A stretch of DNA of 64,000 nucleotides, taken from assembly GCA_964013565.1 (NCBI GenBank), contig CAXGWU010000011.1, forward strand, positions 121 to 64,120, in the 5' to 3' direction. Under the pieces are notes generated by a model. It saw only the letters and a program-made list of their open reading frames with translations. It had not been told where the DNA came from and did not search any database. The stretch is from an uncultured Oligoflexia bacterium. Its GTDB lineage: Bacteria > Bdellovibrionota > UBA1018 > UBA6935. The position numbers were made by a program, and so were the translations under genes. The first letter of the stretch is position 1. Each line of letters opens with the position of its first letter. Below, piece by piece: positions 1 through 12,428 of the stretch.

Positions 1-135
1 TCAATGGTTTATCAATATTTTTGATTTTTCAGATTCTTTGAAAGATACGAGCGTTTCTGAGTCTGTCTCTAAAGAAACACCTTCACTTAAAGATCAAAAA
101 AGTGAAAGAAAAGTTAGAGCAGGAGCTGCACAATA
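1..135 (+). CDS. 3' end of an ORF that begins upstream of the window (unknown product)
   Basis: Open frame from position 2 to the TAG at 133-135 (…SVSESVSKETPSLKDQKSERKVRAGAAQ*). No recognisable motif. Confidence 0.2.
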
Positions 136-235
136 GCTTTTTTTGAAAGAGTGATTTAGTTTTTCTTATTTGTATAGGGCAGAAATTACTACCTAAAAAC
201 TGAGGTAAAAGAGACTTCAACTCATCTCAATCAAT

Positions 236-484
236 ATGCGACTTTTACAACGGAAGCTTGTCAGTGCTGCCATCATTGAGGCTCTGTTTGAGGCGGATTA
301 CGATACTTTCAAGGGGGGGCATTGCCATCTTACTAGTATGCTGAGATCACGGCTCGAACGGGTCTTTCTAAGAGTACCCTCTACCGGATGTGTGAACCCG
401 ATTCTAATCCTACTCTTGAAAATATCGGTAAGGTACTCAGCTATATCAATGATCTGTATTTGGCTGAGGCGGCGTAGTGCATAA
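236..484 (+). pseudogene. Frameshifted paralogue of the HI1420/TIGR02684-type addiction-module antidote gene at 4159-4485
   Basis: Nucleotides 270-480 align to 4262-4495 at roughly 90% identity. This copy has a G7 run where the intact copy has GGGGT, plus an ~11-nt deletion near 335. The conserved ARTGLSKSTLYRMCEPDSNPTLENIGKVLSYINDL segment is therefore read out of frame; restoring the frame recovers it. Confidence 0.6.
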
Positions 485-707
485 ACGAGATAAACTTCGA
501 CAACGGGAATTCAAAATTAAACCGAGGTCTTTTCGCAAGATGAAGTGATTTCCACATCTTCCGTGCGTTTAATACTGTGAATTGGGGGTCGGGGTTGAGC
601 ATTATGCGCTAAAAATGCTTCTTTAGACGACTTTCTCCATGATTTACTGTTGGAGGCTTGCCAGTCGTGACGGATTGGGGTATCAGCGGGCCAAGGAGAA
701 AATACTT

Positions 708-1118
708 ATGATTCGTTACTTGGTTCCGCTACTAGTGATTATTTCGAATTCAGCGATTGCTGAAGACGCTTGCCGCGACCTCAAAATGGAACTCAAGAGC
801 CCCGATTGCCAGCGGTCCACTTGTACTGATGTACAAAGACTTCCTGAGCTAATTCAGGTCTACCGAATCGATCGTAAAAGTGACCAGGAAGTAAAGATCG
901 GTTATTTGAACTCTGGGAAGTTAACAAACAAGTATAAATTTTGTGACGACCAGGATGCAGGTTTAGTGTTCTATTTTTACAATGTTTGGGGCGAGTCCCT
1001 TGCAATCGAAGACGTGAACGCTGATTTTGTGGTGTCTGGGCCATCGTCTGGTGAGTTCGATATATATCTGCCTCTTCGCTACAGCGATGCCGTTTATCGA
1101 ATGACAGTTCGGCGATAG
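708..1118 (+). CDS. Hypothetical secreted protein
   Basis: ATG at 708 with AAGGAG 9 nt upstream. N-terminal signal-peptide-like MIRYLVPLLVIISNSAIA. No family recognised. Confidence 0.45.
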   Translation: MIRYLVPLLVIISNSAIAEDACRDLKMELKSPDCQRSTCTDVQRLPELIQVYRIDRKSDQEVKIGYLNSGKLTNKYKFCDDQDAGLVFYFYNVWGESLAIEDVNADFVVSGPSSGEFDIYLPLRYSDAVYRMTVRR

Positions 1119-1175
1119 TCAGCGCATTTCTGAAAATTCTCTTCAAGCAGTATTCTTTCGCTGTGGCTCAGCGAC

Positions 1176-1250
1176 GACCATCAGTTTTCTTGGCTACATA
1201 ACATCGGATTATTAGACGCGTCATCGTGTTGCAAGAGTTCCCAATCTTGA
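1176..1250 (+). repeat. HigB-like toxin gene fragment, imperfect copy of 3500-3570
   Basis: Shared blocks tttctt(g/c)gct..ataacatcgga-N18-tgttgcaagaRttccca with identical 18-nt spacing. The frame that gives ITSDRFPHHNVARIPIA in the other copy gives ITSDY*TRHRVARVP here, with an in-frame stop. Confidence 0.45.
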
Positions 1251-1254
1251 AAAA

Positions 1255-1743
1255 CTATGCTGCTCTTGCGGTCCAGCCACCAGACGTTGGACTCAGCACC
1301 ATCTTACGCAGCAATTGCCTAGACTCTAAAGCTTTACTCAGCGTTTCAACCGAGTAATCATGATTTTTTCGATTCAGAAGAGCCATGTGTCGCAATAGAC
1401 TGTCGACCGAAAGTGGTATATCAACCTTTTTGTTTTCCCATCTTGAGACGGTTTCGGGAGTCACTCCCAGTCGCATTGCAAAGTCTTTTCCGGATAGACC
1501 AAGATATGTTCTCAAAAATCTAAATTCAGTATCATTTAGCCTAGATTTTTTAGTTACAAGTAGTCGTGCGATTTCTCTATGAAGGATCTCAATACTGGGA
1601 ATCTCTGCTTCTATAGCGCCACATTCGCCACAGCTCCACACATTAATCTTAGAGAGATAAACATTACTCAGCCCACATTCGATATAATGGTAACTTTGGG
1701 ATTTAGAGTTTTTTATTTTTGCGCCACATTCCGAACAGTTCAT
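1255..1743 (-). CDS. MqsA/YgiT-like antitoxin: N-terminal zinc ribbon plus C-terminal XRE helix-turn-helix
   Basis: CSECG…CGECG pair of CxxC motifs. C-terminal segment LNDTEFRFLRTYLGLSGKDFAMRLGVTPETVSRWENKKVDIPLSVDSLL matches the YgiT HTH layout. GGAGG 9 nt upstream of the internal ATG at 1743, which is the preferred start; the ORF track extends to 1770. Confidence 0.6.
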   Translation of the reverse strand: MNCSECGAKIKNSKSQSYHYIECGLSNVYLSKINVWSCGECGAIEAEIPSIEILHREIARLLVTKKSRLNDTEFRFLRTYLGLSGKDFAMRLGVTPETVSRWENKKVDIPLSVDSLLRHMALLNRKNHDYSVETLSKALESRQLLRKMVLSPTSGGWTARAA

Positions 1744-1817
1744 TTTCTCTTCCTCCAACCAGTGATACATCTAATCCAATCACGCTCCAGAAATTCAATT
1801 TTCAATTTAAACTTCTT

Positions 1818-2129
1818 CTAAGCCACTTCGACTTTGACGTCGATTTGTGGGTAGATGACATTGAGATACTTGATGAGGCGATCCGTCGTGAACTCGTCGA
1901 ATTGATAGCGAAGAATCTTGCTCATCAGGGCTTCGTCAATCCCGATTTTTGAAGCGAGTTCTTTTTGGCTGATCTTGTGCTCATTTTTGTAAATGACGAA
2001 CTTTTCACAAAGGCGGTACTTTGTTCGATCGACGGGAGAAGCATCCTTGGGGAGAGGGCGCGAAGCTAGACCTTGGTCGAGTTCTTTTCTTACGATTTCA
2101 AGTTCTTCATCAGTGGGAAACTTTGTCAT
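1818..2129 (-). CDS. XRE-family HTH protein (putative antitoxin/regulator)
   Basis: HTH segment ISQKELASKIGIDEALMSKI. ATG at 2129 preceded by GGAAAG. The gene lies immediately downstream of a 100-aa ORF, a toxin-antitoxin-like layout. Confidence 0.45.
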   Translation of the reverse strand: MTKFPTDEELEIVRKELDQGLASRPLPKDASPVDRTKYRLCEKFVIYKNEHKISQKELASKIGIDEALMSKILRYQFDEFTTDRLIKYLNVIYPQIDVKVEVA

Positions 2130-2131
2130 CT

Positions 2132-2434
2132 TTACTTTCCTTTCGTCACTCGGAAGGCGTTTACAACCCCAAGGTAATCGTCGTGGATACACATGACGAT
2201 TACCAGACGGTACGGCTTCGACTCTAGGAGTACGGGCTCCACTCGAAAGTATTCGAAGCCATCGTGCTCGCGCTCAATGAGATACGTCCCACCGTCGATT
2301 TCTTTCACCAAATCGAGAATGAGGTTGTCATTGATGTCCGGGTGATTTTCTCGATAATGCTGGTCGATGATTATCCGATTCAGCGGACGTCCGTTGATGT
2401 GAAGCGATGCTGGGTATTCGTTCCGCTGAGACAC
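2132..2434 (-). CDS. Small protein of unknown function, first gene of a TA-like pair (putative toxin)
   Basis: 100-aa ORF ending 2 nt before the HTH gene start. No family recognised. A near-palindrome lies just upstream. Confidence 0.35.
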   Translation of the reverse strand: MSQRNEYPASLHINGRPLNRIIIDQHYRENHPDINDNLILDLVKEIDGGTYLIEREHDGFEYFRVEPVLLESKPYRLVIVMCIHDDYLGVVNAFRVTKGK

Positions 2435-2441
2435 AAAATCA

Positions 2442-2457
2442 GAATAGATAAAGTTGA
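2442..2457. promoter_or_regulatory. Near-perfect 16-bp palindrome (candidate operator) upstream of the 2434 minus-strand operon
   Basis: ttgataaatttgtcaa: the half-sites ttgataaa and tttgtcaa are reverse complements with one mismatch. Located in the divergent intergenic region 2435-2713. Confidence 0.3.
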
Positions 2458-2713
2458 TAAATTTGTCAATTTTTAATAAATTGAATTAATATCAATATGT
2501 TATATCGGTCTAAAACTGCTTTTTTCGATATTTCCACTTCTTGCGCTTTTGATTACATTGAATTTGGAGTCAGGTTTGAGCGTTATTTACAAAGCAAAAC
2601 GGATTTTTGACGAACCACATCCTTGCGAAATAAGAGCGGATATATTTGTAAAAGATCAGGATCCTCAACGCTTGACTATAAAGCTTGGTAAGTCAAATAC
2701 CGATGATTGATTG

Positions 2714-3415
2714 ATGAGGAATGCTCTCATATCTGTAGCTTTAGCCTTTGTACTGACCGTGCCCGGAGCTTGTGCGGGGCTCATCGATTGCATTCTCGGT
2801 ACTAGGAAATCCGTAGATGCAGACAGAAAAAAACTAGTTTCGACCCTAAGCAGTAGGAATTTAAAGAAAGAAGTTCTGCAACTATTTCGTGCTGACGAAA
2901 AGCAGCTAATCGATTCGATCGGATCGTTTCCCACCAGAGCCCAATTCAACAACATGGCAGACGGATCGATTGTTTATTTTAACGGTCACTACTACGTAAG
3001 AAACGGGCAGAGAATCAAAATGGTTACAGAAGGAGATGTCCTAAAAGAGAGCTTTACCGGAAAAATTCGGGTAACGATGCTGACTCATGATAGAGCAGGA
3101 GGAGCAAGAATTGGATTCGAGCTCTTTAGGGAGAATGAAACTAAAGGTTTGGGTACCTACCGATCTATTCACGACCTTTTCCCGGACGACTTGATACCTC
3201 CATTTGAGAAATTGGGAACAAATTATGAAGATGCATCGGCCCTTCGAATTAAACAATTAGAATCCTTACTTCAAAGGGCGAGTGATTTCAAAAAAGAGCT
3301 TAACGCGACTGGCGTGTATCGCTTGCAAGGAGAAGCTGCGCGTTCGAATGTACTTCCTGCCGATATCGACCCACTGATTGATAGCATTTATTCTGAGCTG
3401 TCCCGTACCCCGTGA
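2714..3415 (+). CDS. Hypothetical secreted protein
   Basis: Signal peptide MRNALISVALAFVLTVPGACA. No family recognised. Confidence 0.45.
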   Translation: MRNALISVALAFVLTVPGACAGLIDCILGTRKSVDADRKKLVSTLSSRNLKKEVLQLFRADEKQLIDSIGSFPTRAQFNNMADGSIVYFNGHYYVRNGQRIKMVTEGDVLKESFTGKIRVTMLTHDRAGGARIGFELFRENETKGLGTYRSIHDLFPDDLIPPFEKLGTNYEDASALRIKQLESLLQRASDFKKELNATGVYRLQGEAARSNVLPADIDPLIDSIYSELSRTP

Positions 3416-3499
3416 GAGTTGATTTTTTAGAGTAATGTAGAGACCTCTTTCTTTACGAAAAGAAGTTCAGCCTACGTTTTGAATCGTTGAGGATCATCA

Positions 3500-3686
3500 A
3501 ATTTCTTCGCTCTATAACATCGGACCGGTTTCCACATCATAATGTTGCAAGAATTCCCATCGCCTAGAAGCACTACGAGGTGATTTAAAGGGGCTCCATA
3601 ACATTCGAATCAATGATCAGTGGAGAGTTATTTTTAAGTGGACCGACAAAGGTCCCGTAGAAGTTTATATTGATGACTGCCATTAG
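3500..3686 (+). pseudogene. higB: HigB (plasmid-maintenance killer, RelE/ParE superfamily) remnant: frameshifted N-terminal part and in-frame C-terminal part, no start codon
   Basis: Frame 0 from 3543 to the stop at 3684-3686 encodes LEALRGDLKGLHNIRINDQWRVIFKWTDKGPVEVYIDDCH. This matches the HigB C-terminus (LHPLKGDxxGxWSxxVxxNWRIxFxFxxGDAYxxDYxDYH). The +1 frame upstream reads …ITSDRFPHHNVARIPIA*. There is no ATG, and about 15 codons are missing between the two segments. Confidence 0.6.
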
Positions 3687-3698
3687 GAAAATACGGTT

Positions 3699-3989
3699 AT
3701 GGAAATGAAAAGAATGCCAACCACTCCTGGAGGGATATTAAAAGAAGAATTTTTAATTTCTCTTGAAATGTCACAAAAAGAACTCCCTGACCATGTGGGG
3801 TGTGACGTCAAAGTTATCAATCGAATCGTTAATGATCGTACCTCTATCACTGCAGAAATGGCTTTGAGGTTAGGGGCTGCTTTTAGTATGTCTCCCCAGT
3901 TTTGGTTGAATGCACAGCAAGCAGTTGATATTTATCGGGCCTCGAAAGTGCTCAAAGCACTCCCTAAACCTCTTAGTAAAGTTGGTTGA
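3699..3989 (+). CDS. higA: HigA antitoxin (XRE HTH; addiction-module antidote)
   Basis: MEMKRMPTTPGGILKEEFLISLEMSQKELPDHVG…ITAEMALRLGAAFSMSPQFWLNAQ matches the HigA family pattern (PxHPGEILxEEFLxPLGxSQxxLAxxxGV…ITxxxALRLxxxFGxSxxFWLNLQ). The gene immediately follows the HigB remnant. Confidence 0.7.
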   Translation: MEMKRMPTTPGGILKEEFLISLEMSQKELPDHVGCDVKVINRIVNDRTSITAEMALRLGAAFSMSPQFWLNAQQAVDIYRASKVLKALPKPLSKVG

Positions 3990-4220
3990 AACAACTCGAT
4001 GCTCGGCTAAAGAACGTGGAGCTTCACAACTATTTTGGCGATCACAAGCCCCTGGGCGATGGATTGCTTGAGTTATAAGTGGAAGAATGGAAGGCGTGTT
4101 TACTACACGCTGATCGTAAAGAAGGAAGTGACCTTGGTTTTACTGGGAGGACTAAAAAATGCCCAAGAAAAAGATATCAAAAAAGCGCGCAAAATCCTCA
4201 AAAGAGAAACCTCAAGCTAA
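3990..4220 (+). pseudogene. HI1419/TIGR02683-type addiction-module killer protein, N-terminally truncated and frameshifted
   Basis: Frame A 3990-4046 reads LKQLDARLKNVELHNYFGDHKPLGDGLLEL*. The frame of 4035-4220 continues …SYKWKNGRRVYYTLIVKKEVTLVLLGGLKNAQEKDIKKARKILKR. Joined, they match the killer consensus ([36 protein letters not shown]…VLLLxGGDKxxQxxDIKxAxxL). The first ~30 aa are absent because the gene begins directly at the higA stop, and there is a frame break near 4046. Confidence 0.6.
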
Positions 4221-4485
4221 GGGGTACAAAGCAGGAACGGATGTCTCGATCGATGGCCTAAAGGACGCTATTATTGAGGCTCTATTTGAGGCAGATTACG
4301 ATACCTTCAAGGGGTGCATTGCCATCTTACTAGATAAGCGCGACTACGCTGAGATCACGGCTCGAACGGGTCTTTCTAAGAGCACCCTCTATCGGATGTG
4401 TGAACCCGATTCCAATCCCACTCTTGAGAATATCGGTAAGGTACTCAGCTATATCAATGATCTGGATTCTGCTGACGCTGCGTAG
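4159..4485 (+). CDS. HI1420/TIGR02684-type addiction-module antidote protein (HTH)
   Basis: DAIIEALFEADYDTFKGCIAILLDKRDYAEITARTGLSKSTLYRMCEPDSNPTLENIGKVLSYI matches the family pattern (AAYLxAALEDGDPxLxxxALGDIARARGMSxLAxxTGLSRESLYKALSxxGNPTxxTxLKVLxALG). The ORF is intact. The true start may lie downstream of the K-rich N-terminal extension. Confidence 0.65.
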   Translation: MPKKKISKKRAKSSKEKPQAKGYKAGTDVSIDGLKDAIIEALFEADYDTFKGCIAILLDKRDYAEITARTGLSKSTLYRMCEPDSNPTLENIGKVLSYINDLDSADAA

Positions 4486-4545
4486 CGTATAGTTCCACTT
4501 CTCGATAGTTATTTTGTAAGGTAAAAAGTGCCTGATTTCGCCATT

Positions 4546-4569
4546 TTTGATATATATTGACATATATCA
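4546..4569. promoter_or_regulatory. Inverted repeat (9 bp arms, 6 bp spacer): candidate operator or promoter element of the RelE-like/antitoxin operon
   Basis: ttgatatat-attgac-atatatcaa lies 23 bp upstream of the GTG of the RelE-like pseudogene. AT-rich TATA-like context. Confidence 0.4.
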
Positions 4570-4591
4570 AAATATATCATATTCTAATCTG

Positions 4592-4872
4592 GTGAAATGG
4601 ACGGTCAAGGTTTCCAAGAAGGCTGCAAAGCAGCTTAGGAAACTCCCTGAGAATATTCAACGGAAGATGTACGGCCTTGGCCAAAGAAATTGAAGCCAGT
4701 GGACCCGTCCAAGGTTCATGGCCCAACTACTCCAAGCTCACGGGTGGATAGACACCACTGTCATCTCAGTTACGCTTATGTGGCGGTCTGGGAGGTGGCG
4801 AGCAAGGAGATAAGACTTATTGAGGTGACATATGTCGGTAGCAGTAAAGACGCGCCGTGCTGAAAAAAAAAT
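4592..4872 (+). pseudogene. RelE/ParE-family toxin gene disrupted by at least three frameshifts
   Basis: Three different frames give successive segments: (V)KWTVKVSKKAAKQLRKLPENIQRKM…, then …LAKEIEASGPVQGSWPNYSKLTGG*, then …DRHHCHLSYAYVAVWEVASKEIRLIEVTYVGSSKD. Together they match RelE (MKWTVxFSKKAxKxLxKLPxxIQxKIxxAIEELAxxPxPxGxKKLTGxxxLYRIRVGDYRIIYEIDDExKxIYILxIGHR). Confidence 0.65.
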
Positions 4873-4879
4873 GGTTGAA

Positions 4880-5221
4880 GTTCGCATTGGGAATAAGCGT
4901 CCTCGACTTTATTTGGTTCCTCAAAGTAAGACACGAGGAATTGAATCTTTGCTTTCTGAATACTTAGCGGAAGAAAACGAATCCGTTTCGCTTGATGATG
5001 CCTTTCAACATCTCAACGATAAGTATTCTAAGCAGGGCAATGTCTTGTGCGGACTTCGCCTAAAGAAAGGGCTCACTCAGGCGGCCCTCGCCAAGAAGGT
5101 CGGTACCTCGCAAGCGAATATTGCCGCGATGGAGAATGGAAAGCGGGCTATAGGAAAAGCCATGGCACAAAAGCTAGCAAATGCGCTGGGAACGAAATAC
5201 AGCGTATTCTTGAATCGATGA
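4880..5221 (+). CDS. XRE-family HTH antitoxin (HigA-like), partner of the decayed RelE-like gene
   Basis: HTH segment LRLKKGLTQAALAKKVGTSQANIAAMENGKRAIGKAMAQKLANALG. ATG at 4880 lies directly after the toxin stop; the ORF track starts at 4832 and overlaps the toxin remnant. Confidence 0.55.
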   Translation, partial: VRIGNKRPRLYLVPQSKTRGIESLLSEYLAEENESVSLDDAFQHLNDKYSKQGNVLCGLRLKKGLTQAALAKKVGTSQANIAAMENGKRAIGKAMAQKLANALGTKYSVFLNR

Positions 5222-5769
5222 AATTCGTATTTCGTATGCCTCACATGAACCCTAAAGTTGCATTTTGGTTCTGGCTTTTTGTGTCTGGATTTGTGGGCGG
5301 ACTTCTCCATGAGGTTGGTCATTACATAGCAGGCCTGTTATTTGGACTTGAACCTACTCTAGCGTTTCAAAGCGGAGGTACCGTCGATTACAAGGTACCT
5401 CCTCAAGGTTTGATTGAAGTGGGCGCGCTGATGGCTGGACCTGTTTTTACATGGATCACAGCACTTTTCAGCTTTTTCCTTCATAAATCATTTAAGTGGA
5501 TTGGCTTTTTGTCCTTTGCACTTTGGAATGGATTATTTCGGCTCAGTGTTTTGATTGACGGACAGCGATCTGACGAAGGGAAGACATCTACCTTACTTGG
5601 CACACCATTTCTCTTTGAGGGAATCGCTGTTGGTATTTCGCTTGGATTGTGTGTCTGGTTTTTACGGCATCAGAAAATCGTTTCTAGCAATCTTCGCTGG
5701 TTGCCAGTGTATTTCATTGTGGCTGGTCTAGGTTTTCGTCTTTCATTTGACCTGTTCGCACTTTTTTGA
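5218..5769 (+). CDS. Polytopic membrane protein with HExxH motif (putative membrane metalloprotease-like)
   Basis: The ATG at 5218 overlaps the antitoxin TGA as ATGA, suggesting translational coupling. LLHEVGHYIAGLLFG contains HExxH. Several hydrophobic helices follow. The longer ORF track start at 5047 overlaps the antitoxin and was rejected. Confidence 0.45.
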   Translation: MKFVFRMPHMNPKVAFWFWLFVSGFVGGLLHEVGHYIAGLLFGLEPTLAFQSGGTVDYKVPPQGLIEVGALMAGPVFTWITALFSFFLHKSFKWIGFLSFALWNGLFRLSVLIDGQRSDEGKTSTLLGTPFLFEGIAVGISLGLCVWFLRHQKIVSSNLRWLPVYFIVAGLGFRLSFDLFALF

Positions 5770-5853
5770 CGAAGTTAGCGTTAAATTCCCATTCCCTACA
5801 GAAACGAGAGATATGAGAAGGTACCTAGATGCTATCGGAGTTCGAAGAGAGAT

Positions 5854-6651
5854 TTAGTCCTTCTCAGCTACTCTCGCAGCGGTTTCAAGCAAACTTAAAA
5901 AACTGTGAGCAGAAAGACTGGCTCCACCGACAAGACCTCCATCGATGTTGGGGCACTCTAAAAGTTCTTCGAAATTTTCTGGTTTTACACTTCCTCCATA
6001 AAGGATGGATGTTCGACCAGAAGCTTCTATTCCGAATCGGTCCCAGAGGTTTTTTCTTAAAAGTTGGTGAGCTTCTTCAGCTTGCCTAGGAGAGGCGGTG
6101 AGTCCTGTTCCAATCGCCCAAACGGGTTCATATGCAATGACAAGGGTTCCATTTAAATAGGGGATCATTGATTCTGAAATACATTCGTTCATTTGGTTTT
6201 CAAGAACTGTTTTTGTTTGTCCTGATTCTCTCTCTTTTTGTGTTTCTCCAACACAAAGGATGACCCGAAACCCATTTTTAAGTAGATGAAGAGTTCGATT
6301 CTGCACACTTTGATTTGTTTCTCCAAAGTACTGACGTCTTTCAGAATGACCTGTCAGTGACCAATGGATTCCAATTTCTTTTAAGGCAGTCGTTGAAACT
6401 TCTCCTGTAAATGCACCGTGATCTTCCCAGTGCGTGTTTTGAGATCCAATTTCTAGAGATGAGCCTTTTTCGTTTTGGGCAGTCATTAAACTTAAAAAAG
6501 ACGGAAAAATTAAACTCGTTACTGGAGATGATTGCAAGGTTGGGATGAGTGGATGTTCATTGACCGTTCTTAGAAAAGAAGAAGTATCTGCATTGGTCTG
6601 ATTCATCTTCCAGTTTCCAGCGACAATAATTCCTCGCGAATGTTGATTCAT
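5854..6651 (-). CDS. tpiA: Triosephosphate isomerase
   Basis: IVAGNWKMNQT motif and catalytic-loop region. Last gene of a gap-pgk-tpi operon. Confidence 0.9.
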   Translation of the reverse strand: MNQHSRGIIVAGNWKMNQTNADTSSFLRTVNEHPLIPTLQSSPVTSLIFPSFLSLMTAQNEKGSSLEIGSQNTHWEDHGAFTGEVSTTALKEIGIHWSLTGHSERRQYFGETNQSVQNRTLHLLKNGFRVILCVGETQKERESGQTKTVLENQMNECISESMIPYLNGTLVIAYEPVWAIGTGLTASPRQAEEAHQLLRKNLWDRFGIEASGRTSILYGGSVKPENFEELLECPNIDGGLVGGASLSAHSFLSLLETAARVAEKD

Positions 6652-6654
6652 GAT

Positions 6655-7845
6655 CTACTCCTCGTAAGTTAATATGTCTCTTCTTGCAACCGTCGAATAG
6701 TTTCTTAAAATTTCAATTCCAGGAAGTTTTCCAGACTCCAAAAACTCTAAAACAGCCCCGCCTCCGGTAGAAAGGTGAGTAAATTTTTGCGAAAGTCCAG
6801 CAGACCGAATGGCAGAAACCGTGTCTCCTCCGCCTACAATTTTAATTCCGTCATGTTCAGATAAGAATTTTGCAACTTCAAATGTTCCTTTTGCGTATTC
6901 TTCTTTTTCAAACCAACCAAGAGGTCCGTTCCAAAAAACAGTTTTTGCATTTTTAAGTTCGTCACAGAATTCTCTGATGGTCTTTTCTCCAATGTCGAAA
7001 CCATCAATGGTGTCTCGAGGAATAATGAGCGGGATTCCCTTTTTCTTCGCCTGAAAAATGACTTGATGAGCAGCTTCGATATCTTCAGAAGTTGGTTGTT
7101 TCGCTTTTTCAGGAAGGTCTTTATCCTTTGCCTTCCAAAAGGCATGAGCCATTGCTCCTCCGATGAGGAGTCCATCTAGATGAACCATCAATGATTCGAT
7201 CATTTTAATTTTATCACTGACCTTTGATCCTCCTAAAATAGCGTAAAAAGGTTTTTTAGGCTGATGAAGAAGAGGTTGAAGGTACTGGAGTTCTTTTTCG
7301 ATCAGAAAGCCATAACCTTTGTGAGCCATCGCTTCAGGAAGTCCATAAGTACTTGCATGCTTTCGGTGACAGGTACCAAAGGCATCGGTGACATAGACTT
7401 CTCCAAGTCGAGCAAGCTTATGTACAAAACGAGTTTCGTTTTCAGTTTCTTCTTTGTAAAAGCGAAGATTTTCAAGCATGAGGATTTGTCTTGGTGCGAG
7501 TTGGGTCACCATCAGTTCAATTCCTTCTCCAATGCAGTCATCTGCTAACAGAACTTCTTTTTCTAAGAGTTGTGCAAGATGGGTAGCTACAGGCTCTAAT
7601 GAAAAAGCACTGTTTTTTTCTCCTTTTGGACGTCCTAAATGAGATCCAATAATGATTTTTGCTCCCTGCTCAATTAAATATTCGAGAGTTGGAATTGCTT
7701 CTCTTATTCGGTTGTCGTCAGAAACAATCCACTGCTCTTCCCCTTCTTTTTCTAGAGGGACGTTAAGGTCTAAACGAACAAAAACTTTTTTATTTTTTAA
7801 ATCTAAGTCTTTTAATGAAAACAAAGAAGTATGATCTTTGGTCAT
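6655..7845 (-). CDS. pgk: Phosphoglycerate kinase
   Basis: 396 aa. N-terminal KKVFVRLDLNVP and conserved C-terminal STGGGA(V)LE. Confidence 0.92.
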   Translation of the reverse strand: MTKDHTSLFSLKDLDLKNKKVFVRLDLNVPLEKEGEEQWIVSDDNRIREAIPTLEYLIEQGAKIIIGSHLGRPKGEKNSAFSLEPVATHLAQLLEKEVLLADDCIGEGIELMVTQLAPRQILMLENLRFYKEETENETRFVHKLARLGEVYVTDAFGTCHRKHASTYGLPEAMAHKGYGFLIEKELQYLQPLLHQPKKPFYAILGGSKVSDKIKMIESLMVHLDGLLIGGAMAHAFWKAKDKDLPEKAKQPTSEDIEAAHQVIFQAKKKGIPLIIPRDTIDGFDIGEKTIREFCDELKNAKTVFWNGPLGWFEKEEYAKGTFEVAKFLSEHDGIKIVGGGDTVSAIRSAGLSQKFTHLSTGGGAVLEFLESGKLPGIEILRNYSTVARRDILTYEE

Positions 7846-7847
7846 GA

Positions 7848-8861
7848 CTAAATTCCTTGTTGAACGATATGACGAGTTAAATCAAGCATTCGTTGAGAAA
7901 ACCCAGATTCATTGTCGTACCAAGAAAGAACTTTTACCCAATTTCCAGTAACTACAGTGGTAAAGAGGCTGTCAATCGTTGAGCTATGAGTGTTCCCATT
8001 ATAATCGATCGAAACCAAAGGATCAGTGCTATAGCCTAAAATACCCTTCATTGAACCTTCGCTTGCAGCTTTAAATGCATCATTGACTTGTTCAATGTTA
8101 ACCTCTTTATTGAGTTCACCAACAAAGTCCACCATAGAGACATTAGGAGTAGGGACTCGAACCGCCATACCATCTATTTTTCCAGAAAGATGAGGAAGGA
8201 CAAGCCCAACAGCTTTTGCAGCTCCCGTGGTTGTTGGAATCTGAGAAAGAGCTGCTGCTCTTGCTCTTCTTAGATCTGAGTGTGGAAGGTCTAAAATTCT
8301 TTGGTCATTGGTATAACTGTGAATGGTGGTCATCGTTCCACGGTTGACTCCGAAGGCATCATCTAAGACTTTGACCAGTGGAGCAAGGCAATTGGTCGTA
8401 CACGACGCATTTGAAATTACAAAGTGTTTTTCAGGAGAATAATCCGTATGGTTCACTCCCATACATAGAGTTGCATCAGGTTCTTTCGCCGGTGCAGAAA
8501 TAATGATTCGTTGGGCTCCTGCCGACAAGTGTGCAGAAGCATCTTTTTTGTGAGTAAAACGACCGGTACATTCGTGAACGATCTGAACACTTTGATCTTT
8601 CCAACCCAGTTTTGAAGGATCTGTTTCACGACTTACAGAAATCGTTTCACCATTAACAATGAGGGCATTTCCATCAGTACGAACGTCGGCATCTAAGGTC
8701 CCATGAGCTGAATCATACTTAAGGAGATGAGCAAGGGTTTGAATGTCTCCTAAATCATTGATTCGAGAAATCTTTAATTGAGGATCTTTGAGAGCTAAAC
8801 GCAGGACTTTTCGTCCAATTCGGCCAAAACCATTTATTCCAATATTTGTTTGATGAGTCAT
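7848..8861 (-). CDS. gap: Glyceraldehyde-3-phosphate dehydrogenase
   Basis: INGFGRIGR NAD-binding motif and SNASCTTNCLAP active site. The ATG at 8861 is preferred; the tracked ORF begins at a TTG at 8867. Confidence 0.92.
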   Translation of the reverse strand: MTHQTNIGINGFGRIGRKVLRLALKDPQLKISRINDLGDIQTLAHLLKYDSAHGTLDADVRTDGNALIVNGETISVSRETDPSKLGWKDQSVQIVHECTGRFTHKKDASAHLSAGAQRIIISAPAKEPDATLCMGVNHTDYSPEKHFVISNASCTTNCLAPLVKVLDDAFGVNRGTMTTIHSYTNDQRILDLPHSDLRRARAAALSQIPTTTGAAKAVGLVLPHLSGKIDGMAVRVPTPNVSMVDFVGELNKEVNIEQVNDAFKAASEGSMKGILGYSTDPLVSIDYNGNTHSSTIDSLFTTVVTGNWVKVLSWYDNESGFSQRMLDLTRHIVQQGI

Positions 8862-8897
8862 ACCCAAGGGTATACTTCCGCTGAAGTCTCAAGGAAA

Positions 8898-8925
8898 GAA
8901 AAACTCGCTCGTTTTCTTTTTTTTT
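8898..8925. terminator. Hairpin plus T9 tract between the saccharopine-gene pair and the gap promoter region
   Basis: gaaaaac-tcgctc-gtttttc followed by ttttttttt, read on the plus strand. It sits downstream of the minus-strand gene ending at 8943, so it may act bidirectionally or mainly for that gene. Confidence 0.3.
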
Positions 8926-8942
8926 AAAGTCGACTACTCAAC

Positions 8943-10049
8943 TCATTTAAGGCCAAGTGCGCTAAACCAGCGTTCGATTTCTATAGGATCTTCTGGAGCT
9001 CCTTGAACACCTGGTTTTGCTCTTCCTTCGATGATCATCTCGACGCCGAGTGTAGCGGGGAGAGAAACCAGTTTAGCCATTGCAGAGTGGCTCGGAGGGC
9101 CTGATTCGTCTAAAAAATGACTACTTTTCCACAGCGTGGTTTCTTTCTTTTTAGCTTCAATTTCGACAAAAAGAACGACGCGATCGAGTTCGTTTTCTTG
9201 ATATCGGTATTTCTCCCAAAGTTTATCACTTAGTATTTCAAGTTCTTCGATGGGAGAATGTTCGACGGTGTCAAAGACCGAAGCGGAAGTCCATGCATCA
9301 GACCAGCCTTTTAGCCTTAAGGTTCCTCTGCAAAAGTGTTGAATATTCCACTGAGGATCAAAATGATATTCTTGCTGGTAGGGAAGAGAGTTTCTGTTGG
9401 GGTAAACTTCGAATGTTTCACCCTCAATTTCAAAGTTCCACAGGTTTTTCCATGGGGTTGAGGTAGAGATTGCTTTTCCTGAGTCAACATACGAAGCAGG
9501 AGTTTTTAATGCTCTGAGAACACCTACAGGAGACCAGCTAAATTTGTATTTAAACTCATTTGGGACTTTTGGAAATCCTCCGCAGTAGGACCGGAAGTAA
9601 AGTTCTGCAGAAGGATCAAAGGCAGAACTATTTTTCCATTGAGCAACTAAATGGTGCGCCATGAGATGATCAATTCCTGGGTCGAGTCCAACTTCATTAA
9701 GGAAAGTCAGTCCAAGTGTTTTTGCGTCAGAGTCCATCGACTTCATTGCGTCTGAAAGATAGCTTGTTGAAACGAAATGAGCTTGTTTTTTTAAGCAGAT
9801 TTTTGCGATTTCAGGGTGCATGGGAGCAGGAAGCATAGAAACGACAATATCTTCAGCGCCCAATGATTTTTCAAAAGAAGCGAGATTAAAGCTTTTAGTT
9901 TTTAGCCCTTCCCGTTCAAAACCGGAAATGACCTGATCTGCTTTTTCAATCGTTCGATTCCACAGAGTGAGCGGGTAAGTTGTTTGAGCGAGTCGTTGAA
10001 TTCCAGGTCCTGCAGAAAGTCCGGCTCCGATCCAGTGAATAGTGTTCAT
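8943..10049 (-). CDS. Saccharopine dehydrogenase family protein (LYS9-like, NADP-type Rossmann N-terminus)
   Basis: N-terminal IHWIGAGLSAGPG dinucleotide-binding motif. Length (368 aa) and overall layout fit the Sacchrp_dh family. Confidence 0.55.
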   Translation of the reverse strand: MNTIHWIGAGLSAGPGIQRLAQTTYPLTLWNRTIEKADQVISGFEREGLKTKSFNLASFEKSLGAEDIVVSMLPAPMHPEIAKICLKKQAHFVSTSYLSDAMKSMDSDAKTLGLTFLNEVGLDPGIDHLMAHHLVAQWKNSSAFDPSAELYFRSYCGGFPKVPNEFKYKFSWSPVGVLRALKTPASYVDSGKAISTSTPWKNLWNFEIEGETFEVYPNRNSLPYQQEYHFDPQWNIQHFCRGTLRLKGWSDAWTSASVFDTVEHSPIEELEILSDKLWEKYRYQENELDRVVLFVEIEAKKKETTLWKSSHFLDESGPPSHSAMAKLVSLPATLGVEMIIEGRAKPGVQGAPEDPIEIERWFSALGLK

Positions 10050-11188
10050 GAGTGCTCCAGGGGTTGTGTTTCTTCTGATGAAGAACCTTTTTTTGAAAGT
10101 CCTATTGTTTTTATTTTTTCGATAAATAAGTCTTCAGCTCTTTTCCAAACGGAAGATCCTGTCTTTAAATCAAGAAGGTGAGGGAGAAGCTGTTCTGCAA
10201 AATCTTCACTGCTTTCTCTTGGAAGAAGTGAGGGAAGGTGATCAATTGCAATTAAATCCAGAGGATTGTTTCCATTTACAATTCGAAGCGTGGGTTCATC
10301 AAAAGTAGTAATTCGATTATAAATAGGAAGTGGGTTATGAGGACTATTGGGGTCACAGCTCACATCACAAATGACTTGAAGGTTTCGGACAATGGATGCG
10401 GTTAGGTCATGAGTTAAAAAAGGAGGTGTTCCATCTTTGAGATAAACGCAATTGACAAAAATATCGAAATCTAAAATTTCTTCAAAAGGCCCACCTTTTT
10501 CTGTTTCCGCAAGATCCCACCCTGTTGCTTGCAGTCCAACTTTTTCGATGACTTCCATTGCTCCTTTTCCGCATCTTCCTTTAGAGCCAATGATAAGAAC
10601 TCGAGGTTTGCGACCAAATTTTTTTTCTGCACTTTCAAGTCGATCTTTCAGATGAAAAATAAGTTGTTCTTGTTTAGAAAAAGGAGTCATTTTAGGGAAT
10701 TGTTCTTCGCTTCCATGAATTTGTCGGTATGCCCACACATCAAGCGCGGTTGCGCATCCAGCAAAACCGGCCCAATGACCAAATGCAGCGACTCGTCTTC
10801 CTGTTTCATCGGTGAGAAATTCGAGATCGTAAAGTGTTCCGTCTCCTTTGACAAAACGGGCAAGAACCTCTTGCCATCCACTTTGTTCTTTATAAGCATG
10901 AGCAAAATAGATGTGGCGATGAGTCAGTGGGGTTTCTTCTTCGGGAAGTTCTTTTAGTCCTAGAATAAAAGCTTCTTTGGGGGCTTGACGCCAACTTCCG
11001 AACGAGGCATTTTTACATCCGACCTTTTGATATTCGGCATCGTCAAAAGCGCGGTTTTTTGAAGACTCAACAGTGACTTCAAATCCTGCGTTGATGAGCG
11101 TTTGAGCAGTTTGAGGAGGCAAAGCCGTCCTTTGCTCATTGAGTTTTGTTTCTGCGCGTAGCCAAATATGAATTTTATTTTGGGTCAT
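10046..11188 (-). CDS. Saccharopine dehydrogenase (L-lysine-forming, LYS1-like) / AlaDH-PNT family protein
   Basis: IWLRAETKLNEQRTALPPQTAQTLINAGFEVTVE matches the LYS1 N-terminal signature. Central GSKGRCGKGA nucleotide-binding loop. The gene overlaps the downstream LYS9-like gene by 4 nt. Confidence 0.55.
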   Translation of the reverse strand: MTQNKIHIWLRAETKLNEQRTALPPQTAQTLINAGFEVTVESSKNRAFDDAEYQKVGCKNASFGSWRQAPKEAFILGLKELPEEETPLTHRHIYFAHAYKEQSGWQEVLARFVKGDGTLYDLEFLTDETGRRVAAFGHWAGFAGCATALDVWAYRQIHGSEEQFPKMTPFSKQEQLIFHLKDRLESAEKKFGRKPRVLIIGSKGRCGKGAMEVIEKVGLQATGWDLAETEKGGPFEEILDFDIFVNCVYLKDGTPPFLTHDLTASIVRNLQVICDVSCDPNSPHNPLPIYNRITTFDEPTLRIVNGNNPLDLIAIDHLPSLLPRESSEDFAEQLLPHLLDLKTGSSVWKRAEDLFIEKIKTIGLSKKGSSSEETQPLEHS

Positions 11189-11222
11189 TATTTGCGTTTA
11201 ACGTTCTTGGGGGGAAAAAGCA

Positions 11223-12428
11223 ATGACTGAAGCAACACATTCATTTTGGTTAGATGTACCACTAAAGACTGGATTAAAGGAAGGACTTCCTCAGTCGACC
11301 AGTATTGTGGTTATTGGTTCAGGACTTGCTGGGGCGAGTGCTGCTTATTTTTTAGAAAAACATGGTTTTGAGGGAATTACGCTCGTAGATTATCTTCCCG
11401 AAGAGGCTGCTTCTTATCGAAACTGTGGTCATATTCTTTATGGAACTGTTGAATCAATGAAGGCACTTTGTGAGATTCATGGGGCAGAAAAAGCTAAGGA
11501 ATTGTGGCAGTTTTCAATCGATATTTGTAATCAAGTTGAACAGACTCAGAAAGACTTATCTTTGGAGATGGACTATCGAAGAAAAGGCTATCTGGTGATT
11601 GCAGACTCTGAAGTTGAAGATCGGGAATGCCGAGAATCTGTGGACTTGTTGAATAAAATGGGATTTCAATCTGAATATGTGGATTCAAAAACAATTCAAG
11701 ATTTGGGATTTAAAAATTGTTTTGGAGCTCGGTATGAAGAAGGATCTGCTGACGCTCATCCTGTAAAATTTAGAAATGGTTTAGTAGATGCTTTTTTAGA
11801 AAAGGGAGGTCAGTACTACTCTGGCGTTGAGGTTTTGGATTTAGAAGAAACTTCTGATGGTGTGCGAGTAAAGACCGCTCAAGGAGAGATTCAAGCAGAT
11901 GCGGTAGTGATTGCGGCAAATGCTTATTCTCCTTTATTCTCTGGTTTTTTTAAATCCAGAGGATTGATTGATCCTTTTCGAGGTCAAATTATTACTTCAA
12001 AACCCTTAAAGCACTCTTTTCCAGTTCAATATCCTCATTCTTTTGATCATGGATACGAATATGCCGTAGTGACGCCTGATAATCGTTTAATGATTGGGGG
12101 ATGGAGAAATCATACAGATGGAGAGATGGGAACTTATTCTTTAAAAACAAATAGTTTTGTAGAAGAGGGACTGAAGAAATTTGCTCGGGATCATTATCAG
12201 ATTGAAGAAGAGATTGAATGGGAGTATAGCTGGTCTGGCATCATGGCAGCGAGTCGAACAGGGCTTCCGTTTATAGGAAACACGAGTTCTCCTCGGATTT
12301 ATTCCGTTTGTGGATTTACTGGGCATGGGTTCTCTTGGGCTCATGGGTCTGCCAAGCTTTTATCAGATATTATGGCTGGAGCACCGGTTCCAGAAGTAGC
12401 GAAGCATTTTAATCCTCGGGTGTTATGA
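11223..12428 (+). CDS. FAD-dependent oxidoreductase (DAO family; sarcosine/pipecolate-oxidase-like)
   Basis: VVIGSGLAGASAAYFL Rossmann motif near the N-terminus. 401 aa. Divergent from the saccharopine genes. Confidence 0.65.
   Translation: MTEATHSFWLDVPLKTGLKEGLPQSTSIVVIGSGLAGASAAYFLEKHGFEGITLVDYLPEEAASYRNCGHILYGTVESMKALCEIHGAEKAKELWQFSIDICNQVEQTQKDLSLEMDYRRKGYLVIADSEVEDRECRESVDLLNKMGFQSEYVDSKTIQDLGFKNCFGARYEEGSADAHPVKFRNGLVDAFLEKGGQYYSGVEVLDLEETSDGVRVKTAQGEIQADAVVIAANAYSPLFSGFFKSRGLIDPFRGQIITSKPLKHSFPVQYPHSFDHGYEYAVVTPDNRLMIGGWRNHTDGEMGTYSLKTNSFVEEGLKKFARDHYQIEEEIEWEYSWSGIMAASRTGLPFIGNTSSPRIYSVCGFTGHGFSWAHGSAKLLSDIMAGAPVPEVAKHFNPRVL

What the first reader, a model, noticed from the sequence alone, without database searches (positions are those of the whole stretch)
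1..5800. Toxin-antitoxin 'graveyard' island: five or more type II TA loci, three with decayed toxins but intact antitoxins
Within 5.8 kb, next to the core gap-pgk-tpi operon, the sequence holds the following.
- An orphan MqsA-like antitoxin.
- An unknown small-protein/XRE pair.
- A HigB C-terminal remnant next to intact HigA.
- A truncated and frameshifted HI1419-type killer next to an intact HI1420-type antidote.
- A RelE/ParE gene with three or more frameshifts next to an intact XRE antitoxin.
- A second pseudogenised antidote copy.
- A second HigB fragment.
Repeated loss of the toxin with retention of an intact antitoxin ORF suggests either ongoing decay after island acquisition, or selection for orphan antitoxins as anti-addiction or regulatory factors.
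Basis: partly seen in the sequence, partly recalled or inferred. Interest (0 to 1): 0.7.

Follow-up and report, generated by a model that had tools for sequence, protein, structure and literature searches.

The report
Eroding toxin-antitoxin islet between tpiA and secG
A 6.4-kb stretch inserted between two housekeeping genes of an uncultured marine bacterium holds six toxin-antitoxin modules, three of which have lost a working toxin gene but kept the antitoxin gene; this is a clear example of a decay pattern that has already been described.

Summary
Window 1-5853 is an accessory islet inserted between tpiA and secG, which lie 12-65 nt apart in other genomes. It holds:
- an intact HigA next to a 42-codon C-terminal stump of HigB;
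- a 5'-truncated HI1419-type toxin with one frameshift, next to an open HI1420-like antidote;
- a RelE-like toxin with exactly two +1 frameshifts (not three or more), next to an intact XRE antitoxin;
- a second antidote copy disabled by two indels;
- a lone MqsA-family gene;
- an apparently intact pair: a 100-aa protein with a predicted RelE/BrnT-like fold, plus an HTH_37 protein.

The RelE-like and HI1419 indels recur in a second deposited assembly of the same ocean survey. A "second HigB fragment" is not supported; only a 71-nt repeat of the sequence upstream of the HigB stump exists.

The dead RelE-like gene keeps all 20 invariant family residues, so it died recently. The two antidote copies differ with dN/dS of 0.09, so they were constrained for most of their divergence.

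The best reading is serial acquisition followed by toxin-first erosion, as already described in Photorhabdus and Klebsiella. Selection for orphan antitoxins is neither shown nor excluded. Interest is low to moderate.

The parts
1..136 (+). 3' end of a secreted protein gene with YPGHAS repeats. The gene continues left of the window, across a scaffold gap, towards secG. It is the leftmost gene of the islet.
   Evidence: ORFs in L001 16516-17008. Conversion: L001 position = 16652 minus window position.
266..487 (+). HI1420-like antidote, copy B. It is a pseudogene with a +1 G in the run 313-319 and an 11-nt deletion after 336. No toxin remnant lies upstream.
   Evidence: It is 86% identical in DNA to 4267-4491. 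dN/dS against copy A is 0.09. PF21716 scores 24.4 bits and TIGR02684 22.1 bits.
639..1118 (+). 159-aa hypothetical protein with a signal-like N-terminus. Function unknown.
   Evidence: ORF list and gene call. No hit in Pfam, NCBIfam, PHROGs or PADLOC.
1173..1243 (+). Copy 1 of a 71-nt direct repeat. A gapped alignment extends the similarity to about 1136-1243.
   Evidence: It is 73% identical to 3489-3559, with E of 1e-6 against the 64-kb window and only two copies. Mismatches show no codon-phase bias. It has no HigB similarity.
1255..1770 (-). MqsA-family antitoxin-like protein (two CxxC motifs plus HTH), 171 aa, with no cognate toxin next to it.
   Evidence: TIGR03830 scores 75.3 bits against a cutoff of 61.8. 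PF15731 scores 25.6 bits. The upstream neighbour, 48 nt away, is the HTH_37 gene.
1818..2129 (-). HTH_37 (XRE-type) protein of 103 aa, the candidate antitoxin of the 100-aa protein.
   Evidence: PF13744 scores 31 bits against a cutoff of 27. It is 51% identical to the gene that follows a homologue of the 100-aa protein in L089. A 2-nt spacer separates it from the upstream stop codon.
2132..2434 (-). 100-aa protein from a family with no database annotation. It is a candidate toxin with a predicted RelE/BrnT-like fold, and the ORF is intact.
2711..3415 (+). 234-aa hypothetical protein with a signal-like N-terminus. Function unknown.
   Evidence: ORF list and gene call. No significant family hit.
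3489..3559 (+). Copy 2 of the 71-nt direct repeat. It ends where HigB homology begins.
3555..3686 (+). HigB toxin remnant. Only the C-terminal 42-44 codons and the stop codon remain. The N-terminal half and the start codon are missing.
   Evidence: PF05015 scores 38.2 bits over profile positions 49-89 of 91. PDB 6f8s_B matches at E of 5e-10, residues 56-98 of 98. tblastn gives 66-74% identity over 3555/3558-3683 only.
3699..3989 (+). HigA antitoxin, intact, 96 aa.
   Evidence: TIGR02607 scores 87.6 bits against a cutoff of 47.7, covering profile positions 1-79 of 81. phrog_1381, 'plasmid antitoxin with HTH domain', matches at 1.6e-21.
3980..4220 (+). HI1419-type (RelE/ParE superfamily) toxin remnant. 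It is 5'-truncated, abutting the end of higA, and has one frameshift (extra T at 4076).
   Evidence: TIGR02683 scores 33.8 bits for the 3' ORF alone and 53.7 bits (E of 2e-14, profile positions 24-93 of 95) when the two frames are joined.
4159..4485 (+). HI1420-like antidote, copy A, an open ORF of 108 aa. Its only start codon lies inside the 3' end of the toxin remnant.
   Evidence: TIGR02684 scores 25.9 bits and PF21716 24.6 bits, both below their cutoffs. dN/dS against copy B is 0.09, p of 7e-6.
4547..4585 (+). Palindrome TTGATATAT-N6-ATATATCAA overlapping a promoter-like site. It is a putative operator and promoter for the RelE-like/XRE operon.
   Evidence: Sequence. Promoter scan finds TTGACA-17-TATTCT at 4557-4585. 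The function is inferred.
4592..4863 (+). RelE-like toxin pseudogene. It has two +1 frameshifts (extra G at 4673/4674 and at 4746), a conserved Arg changed to Ser, and the C-terminal Tyr changed to Cys.
   Evidence: tblastn with intact relatives P0001 and P0002 maps three collinear frames. 381 homologues, best 74% identical. All 20 invariant residues are kept. The same sequence appears in MAG contig L002.
4832..5221 (+). XRE/HTH_3 antitoxin, intact, 129 aa. It overlaps the 3' end of the toxin gene by 32 nt.
   Evidence: PF01381 scores 53.7 bits. It is 72% identical over its full length to the partner of intact toxin P0001, and that pair has the same 32-nt overlap.
5218..5769 (+). 183-aa membrane protein with an HEVGH motif, weakly similar to M50 peptidases. 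Its start codon overlaps the XRE stop codon (ATGA).
   Evidence: Sequence. Its only non-self relative, P0282, is 38% identical and carries a weak PF02163 hit. The protein itself has no family hit.
5854..6651 (-). tpiA, the right flank of the islet. secG lies about 500 nt left of window position 1.
   Evidence: PF00121 in the gene table. secG is at L001 17156-17503.

Best explanation
The region is a 6.4-kb accessory islet that sits between tpiA and secG in an uncultured marine bacterium, probably a member of Bdellovibrionota. Several small type II toxin-antitoxin (TA) cassettes have accumulated there and are now eroding.

The erosion follows the logic of addiction. While a toxin is active, losing its antitoxin is lethal. 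The first tolerated lesion therefore always hits the toxin, and the antitoxin gene is left behind as an open ORF for some time.

Three modules are at this stage:
- HigB has lost its 5' half.
- The HI1419-type toxin is 5'-truncated and has one frameshift.
- The RelE-like toxin has two +1 frameshifts and two substitutions at conserved positions.

One antidote copy has gone a step further and is itself disabled. One module, the 100-aa protein with a predicted RelE/BrnT-like fold plus an HTH_37 protein, still looks complete and is probably active. The MqsA-family gene is a lone antitoxin-type regulator.

Shown: gene identities, lesions, the insertion site, reproducibility of part of the sequence in a second assembly, and past purifying selection on the antidote. 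Inferred: the order of events, recent timing, and the activity of the intact pair.
For: **Insertion site**
- In the nearest relative (L004) tpiA and secG are 30 nt apart and are followed by the same 254/256-aa gene.
- In all 14 loci where secG is detectable, it lies 12-65 nt after tpiA.
- Here the two genes are 6.36 kb apart.

**Module identities and lesions**

**Recent inactivation**
- The repaired RelE-like sequence keeps 20 of 20 invariant residues. It is 76% identical to an intact relative in the alignment, and 74% by BLASTP.
- Its antitoxin is 72% identical to that relative's partner.

**Past constraint on the antidote**
- dN/dS is 0.09, from 12.5 synonymous and 4.5 nonsynonymous differences, with Fisher p of 7e-6.

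**Lesions are not one assembler's error**
- A second deposited assembly has zero gaps relative to the window over 3751-12000.

**The intact pair is a mobile two-gene module**
- Homologues are followed by an HTH_37 gene on contigs from different samples, in at least two different neighbourhoods.
- The predicted fold matches TA toxins.

**Known pattern**
- Toxin-only pseudogenisation far outnumbers antitoxin-only pseudogenisation in Photorhabdus (185 against 8), and TA systems cluster in spots (PMC13617665).
- Orphan antitoxins are abundant in Klebsiella (PMC7192599).
Against: - No integrase, transposase, tRNA gene, attC-like site or G+C deviation marks the islet as a classical mobile island. 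A scaffold gap to its left could hide such a gene.
- No sister genome was found. The order and timing of the events are therefore inferred from one sequence.
- Both assemblies derive from Tara Oceans data and may share reads.
- Region 1-3750 is covered by only one assembly lineage.
- No activity has been tested for any gene in the islet.
Confidence: 0.72

Rival explanations
1. The orphan antitoxins are kept by selection. They could act as anti-addiction factors that neutralise toxins on incoming plasmids or phages, as counter-defence, or as transcription regulators of neighbouring genes.
For: - Three antitoxin ORFs carry no disabling lesion, while their partner toxins carry five or more.
- A rough estimate uses the toxin lesion density beyond the first hit. 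Under it, the chance that the XRE and antidote A both stay open under neutrality is about 0.06 (my arithmetic).
- The XRE operon keeps a promoter-like site and a palindrome.
- The XRE stop codon overlaps the start codon of the M50-like gene, so the ORF may be needed to express that gene.
- The anti-addiction idea is discussed for orphan antitoxins in PMC7192599.
Against: - Toxin death looks recent, so open antitoxin ORFs are expected without any selection.
- Antidote copy B is decaying.
- dN/dS of 0.09 reflects the whole divergence of the two copies, not the period after toxin loss.
- No cognate toxin was identified elsewhere, and no population data are available.
Confidence: 0.2
2. The frameshifts are assembly or sequencing errors, and the toxins are intact in the organism.
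For: The sequence is a metagenome assembly. The antidote B insertion lies in a run of seven G. Region 1-3750 is supported by one assembly lineage only.
Against: - A separately deposited MAG assembly has no gaps relative to the window over 3751-12000. That stretch includes the HI1419 and RelE-like indels.
- The HigB and HI1419 defects are losses of tens of codons, not single-base errors.
- Antidote B also has an 11-nt deletion.
- The RelE-like gene additionally has substitutions at two conserved positions.
Confidence: 0.04
3. The islet is an integron-type cassette array or another site-specific capture platform, and the 71-nt direct repeats are its recombination sites.
For: - The islet holds small cassette-like modules, many in one orientation.
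- Two significant direct repeats (1173-1243 and 3489-3559) bracket a 2.3-kb block that holds the MqsA-like gene, the HTH_37 gene, the 100-aa gene and the 234-aa ORF.
- Copy 2 ends at the HigB breakpoint.
Against: - No pair of attC core motifs (RYYYAAC ... GTTRRRY, 45-160 nt apart) occurs on either strand of 1-6000.
- No integrase is present in the 20.8-kb locus.
- There are only two repeat copies, they are only 73% identical, and they are absent from the other module boundaries.
Confidence: 0.04

Closest known systems
Chromosomal toxin-antitoxin 'spots' with toxin-first erosion (Photorhabdus; Belot et al. 2026, PMC13617665)
   Same: - Several type II TA systems cluster in a small accessory interval.
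- Loss occurs by pseudogenisation of the toxin alone or of both genes, rarely of the antitoxin alone.
- Flanking core genes are conserved.
   Different: - The host here is an uncultured marine, probably Bdellovibrionota, genome known from one population.
- No recombinase is visible next to the islet.
- There is no comparative or experimental validation.
Orphan antitoxins in Klebsiella pneumoniae (Horesh et al. 2020, PMC7192599)
   Same: Antitoxin ORFs sit next to disrupted or missing toxins. The same alternative readings apply: degrading pairs or anti-addiction.
   Different: That study was a survey across a population. Here three such cases sit side by side in 1.7 kb of one genome.
HigBA of the GraTA type (PDB 6f8s, Pseudomonas putida 'Putative Killer protein')
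   Same: HigA is a full-length match to the family. The HigB stump aligns to residues 56-98 of the 98-residue toxin. The gene order is toxin first.
   Different: The N-terminal half and the start codon of HigB are missing, so no functional toxin can be made.
RelE, BrnT and MqsR ribonuclease toxins (PDB 1wmi, 3u97, 3hi2, 7vd7)

Membership tests
HigBA type II TA system | HigA antitoxin matching the family model over its full length | tested here: met
   TIGR02607 scores 87.6 bits against a cutoff of 47.7, covering profile positions 1-79 of 81.
HigBA type II TA system | Complete HigB toxin ORF directly upstream of higA | tested here: not met
   Only profile positions 49-89 of 91 are present. No N-terminal homology appears in any frame. 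The region upstream of the stump has in-frame stop codons.
HI1419/HI1420 addiction module (TIGR02683/TIGR02684) | Toxin reaching the family score cutoff with full-length coverage | tested here: not met
   The frame-corrected remnant scores 53.7 bits against a cutoff of 62.85, covering profile positions 24-93 of 95. It has one frameshift and a 5' truncation.
HI1419/HI1420 addiction module (TIGR02683/TIGR02684) | Antidote reaching the family score cutoff | tested here: inconclusive
   TIGR02684 scores 25.9 bits against 53.7. PF21716 scores 24.6 bits against 27, with E of about 1e-5. It is the best-matching family, but the match is below threshold.
RelE-like toxin with XRE antitoxin (COG2026-type 'cytotoxic translational repressor') | Homology to intact toxin-antitoxin pairs with the same gene order and overlap | tested here: met
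   381 homologues, best 74% identical. The L084 pair has the same 32-nt overlap, and its antitoxin is 72% identical.
RelE-like toxin with XRE antitoxin (COG2026-type 'cytotoxic translational repressor') | Uninterrupted toxin reading frame | tested here: not met
   Two +1 frameshifts, at 4673/4674 and 4746.
RelE/ParE Pfam and NCBIfam models (PF05016, TIGR02385) | Significant match to the model | tested here: not met
   TIGR02385 gives E of 0.1 and 13 bits. No PF05016 hit.
MqsRA type II TA system | MqsA-family antitoxin (two CxxC motifs plus HTH) | tested here: met
   TIGR03830 scores 75.3 bits against a cutoff of 61.8.
MqsRA type II TA system | MqsR-type toxin gene directly upstream | tested here: not met
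   The upstream neighbour, 48 nt away, is the HTH_37 gene. No toxin model matches any ORF next to the MqsA-like gene.
Candidate TA pair: 100-aa protein plus HTH_37 protein | Two-gene module conserved in unrelated genomic contexts | tested here: met
   In L088 to L091 a 98-103-aa homologue is followed by a 104-106-aa HTH_37 gene with a 2-nt gap or an 8-nt overlap. The downstream proteins are 51% identical.
Candidate TA pair: 100-aa protein plus HTH_37 protein | Toxin fold of the RelE/BrnT class | tested here: inconclusive
Candidate TA pair: 100-aa protein plus HTH_37 protein | Toxicity that the partner neutralises | not testable with these tools
   This needs a kill-and-rescue assay.
Integron cassette array | attC sites between cassettes and an IntI integrase | tested here: not met
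   No pair of attC core motifs. No integrase in the gene table of L001.
Classical genomic island | Insertion into a gene junction that is otherwise conserved | tested here: met
   tpiA and secG are 12-65 nt apart in 14 of 14 loci where secG is detectable, and 6.36 kb apart here.
Classical genomic island | Integrase, flanking tRNA gene, direct repeats at the ends, or deviating G+C content | tested here: not met
   No tRNA gene in the window. No recombinase. G+C is 0.39-0.47, much like the flanks. A scaffold gap is left unresolved.

The most novel reading that the evidence does not exclude
Two readings are not excluded.
1. The 100-aa/HTH_37 pair is a previously undescribed toxin-antitoxin family with a RelE/BrnT-like ribonuclease fold. 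It has about 190 cluster representatives at 50% identity and no database annotation.
2. The three intact antitoxins beside dead toxins are kept by selection as immunity against toxins carried by incoming mobile elements or phages in this marine lineage.
Probability: 0.25. Interest if true: 0.5.

Novelty: new member of a known kind. Interest (0 to 1): 0.3.

Why it matters
The region is a compact natural snapshot of the life cycle of toxin-antitoxin (TA) modules. One 6.4-kb interval holds an apparently intact module, three toxin-dead modules and one module with a dead antitoxin.

It comes from a poorly sampled marine lineage, and it supports the published acquisition-and-erosion model outside the enterobacteria.

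It also points to one small protein family with no database annotation that is a testable candidate toxin.

It does not change current understanding of TA biology.

Tried and rejected
- **Sister genomes.** I looked for orthologous islets with intact toxins. Scans of genome contigs and metagenome contigs with TPI found nothing closer than 50% identity, apart from the source contigs themselves. Strain comparison and lineage-specific dN/dS were therefore impossible.
- **Second HigB fragment.** I tested 441-602(-), 1119-1300 and 3416-3555 with tblastn, using four HigB sequences that include full N-termini, and with Pfam at E up to 10. Nothing matched.
- **Integron reading.** No pair of attC core motifs was found.
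- **RNA elements.** The window has no tRNA gene and no Rfam hit.
- **PDB sequence searches.** The antidote, the HI1419 remnant and the profile of the 100-aa family gave nothing useful.
- **HigB search.** It returned only 10 hits, all short ORFs of 40-77 aa. Two that I checked are start-codon or stop-codon problems in unrelated contigs, not relatives of this islet.
- **Coding signal in the 71-nt repeat.** Mismatches fall 6, 5 and 8 across the three codon positions, so there is no sign of coding constraint.
- **M50-like gene.** It has only one distant relative, and that one has no XRE neighbour. A conserved XRE-protease module is therefore not supported.

Full report
**Source and reliability**

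The window is 100% identical over 12,000 nt to a Tara Oceans scaffold (ENA ERZ2782952, scaffold_305; L001). Over window 3751-12000 it differs by one substitution and no gaps from contig PBMP01000095.1 of the separately deposited MAG GCA_002722705.1. The indels in the HI1419-type and RelE-like genes therefore recur in a second assembly. Region 1-3750 is covered by one assembly lineage only.

Three observations suggest that the organism belongs to Bdellovibrionota. This is an inference.
- The closest TPI, at 50% identity, is in a Bdellovibrionota MAG.
- The closest SecG, at 62% identity, is in the same MAG.
- The closest relatives of the RelE-like gene are from Bdellovibrionota and Oligoflexia.

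No closer genome or metagenome contig was found.

**Where the region sits**

gap, pgk and tpiA lie at 7848-8867, 6655-7845 and 5854-6651 on the minus strand. L001 extends past the left edge of the window. It shows that secG lies about 500 nt beyond window position 1, in the same orientation as tpiA.

In the nearest relative (L004), tpiA is followed after 30 nt by secG and then by a homologue of the 254-aa gene that follows secG here. Among 55 diverse loci with enough downstream sequence, secG was detectable in 14, and in all 14 it lies 12-65 nt after tpiA. Here the two genes are 6.36 kb apart. The region is therefore an insertion into a junction that is otherwise tight.

The islet carries none of the usual marks of a mobile island:
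- no tRNA gene;
- no Rfam element;
- no recombinase;
- no pair of attC core motifs;
- no G+C deviation.

A scaffold gap inside a YPGHAS-repeat gene, between the islet and secG, is unresolved.

**The modules, from right to left**

1. *RelE-like toxin with XRE antitoxin (4592-5221).* Intact relatives of 89-95 aa exist: 381 hits, the best 74% identical. With tblastn they map onto three collinear frames. This means exactly two +1 frameshifts, an extra G at 4673/4674 and another at 4746.
It has Ser in place of a conserved Arg (His in three relatives), and Cys in place of the C-terminal Tyr that all 24 share.
   - The antitoxin (129 aa; HTH_3 at 53.7 bits) is 72% identical over its full length to the partner of the intact toxin in L084. 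That pair has the same 32-nt overlap between the two genes.
   - Standard RelE/ParE models do not reach significance, so the family assignment rests on the homologues.
   - A palindrome overlapping a promoter-like site lies just upstream.
2. *HI1419-type toxin with HI1420-like antidote (3980-4485).* The toxin remnant starts at the stop codon of higA and lacks about 23 N-terminal profile positions. It has one frameshift, an extra T at 4076. Joining the two frames raises the TIGR02683 score from 33.8 to 53.7 bits. The antidote ORF is open, but its matches to the family models are below threshold.
3. *HigBA (3555-3989).* HigA is a full-length match well above threshold. HigB homology is confined to the last 42-44 codons.
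4. *100-aa protein with HTH_37 protein (1818-2434, minus strand).* Both ORFs are intact, 2 nt apart, with a promoter-like site upstream.
   - The 100-aa protein has 190 relatives and no Pfam, NCBIfam, PHROGs, PADLOC or PDB sequence match.
   - Homologues on contigs from different samples, in at least two different neighbourhoods, are each followed by a 104-106-aa HTH_37 gene.
   - I read this pair as a probably active toxin-antitoxin module with a RelE/BrnT-like toxin. The fold support is moderate, and toxicity is untested.
5. *MqsA-family gene (1255-1770, minus strand).* It scores above the family cutoff and has no toxin next to it.
6. *Antidote copy B (266-487).* It is 86% identical in DNA to copy A, and it is disabled by a +1 G and an 11-nt deletion. 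No toxin remnant lies upstream.

**Other content**

Two secreted-looking proteins of 159 and 234 aa have no family match. A 183-aa membrane protein carries an HEVGH motif. Its start codon overlaps the XRE stop codon, and its only relative has a weak M50 peptidase match.

**What does not hold**

No second HigB fragment exists by any test. What does exist is a 71-nt direct repeat, 1173-1243 and 3489-3559. It is 73% identical, has E of 1e-6 and occurs only twice in 64 kb. Copy 2 ends where HigB homology begins. The repeat shows no codon-phase bias. Its origin is unexplained.

**Decay or selection**

Between the two antidote copies there are 12.5 synonymous and 4.5 nonsynonymous differences. This gives dN/dS of 0.09 with Fisher p of 7e-6. 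Both copies were therefore constrained for most of their divergence, and copy B died recently.

The RelE-like gene is as well conserved as its antitoxin relative to an intact pair, so it also died recently. Open antitoxin ORFs are then expected without any selection.

A rough estimate takes the lesion density in the toxins after the first hit. Under it, the chance that the XRE and antidote A both stay open by luck is about 0.06. That is suggestive at most.

The pattern matches published work. In Photorhabdus, TA systems cluster in spots, and toxin-only pseudogenisation (185 cases) far exceeds antitoxin-only pseudogenisation (8 cases) (PMC13617665). In Klebsiella, orphan antitoxins are abundant, and degradation and anti-addiction are discussed as explanations (PMC7192599).

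**Verdict**

The finding is real and mostly described correctly. It is best explained as a toxin-antitoxin spot in several stages of toxin-first erosion, and it is a new example of a known phenomenon. The only mildly novel element is the 100-aa/HTH_37 module, which has no database annotation.

Noticed in passing
window 1173-1243 and 3489-3559: A 71-nt direct repeat, 73% identical, with E of 1e-6 and only two copies in 64 kb. The copies bracket the block that holds the MqsA-like gene, the HTH_37 gene, the 100-aa gene and the 234-aa ORF. Copy 2 ends at the HigB breakpoint. There is no coding signal, and the origin is unknown.
   Followed up: partly
window 5218-5769: A 183-aa membrane protein with an HEVGH motif. 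Its ATG overlaps the TGA of the XRE antitoxin gene (ATGA). Its only relative is 38% identical, comes from a Cyclobacteriaceae MAG and has a weak Peptidase_M50 hit. That relative sits next to an Rce1-like protease gene, not an XRE gene.
   Followed up: partly
L001 16516-17008 (window 1-136 and the sequence to its left): A secreted protein gene with tandem YPGHAS repeats. A run of N (a scaffold gap) interrupts it, between the islet and secG. The gap could hide further genes.
   Followed up: no
window 4547-4585: A perfect 9-nt palindrome, TTGATATAT-N6-ATATATCAA, overlaps a promoter-like site with a TTGACA -35 box just upstream of the dead RelE-like gene. It looks like a preserved operator for autoregulation.
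   Followed up: no
L084 7233-13370: The Bdellovibrionota contig that carries the intact RelE-like/XRE pair also holds an HI1420-type antidote, a 74-aa/HTH_37 pair, a phage-type integrase, and IS1595 and IS110 transposases. It is another TA-rich region, this time with recombinases.
   Followed up: no
L086 7851-8207 and L087 7851-8222: The closest database relatives of the HigB stump are all annotated as short ORFs of 40-77 aa. In two that I checked, the upstream frame has an in-frame stop codon or lacks an ATG. HigB genes of this subfamily may therefore often be damaged or mis-called in metagenome assemblies.
   Followed up: partly
window 4159-4220: The only start codon of antidote copy A lies 62 nt inside the 3' end of the toxin remnant. 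This gives the antidote a Lys-rich N-terminal extension that is absent from the family profile. Its real start and its expression are uncertain.
   Followed up: no
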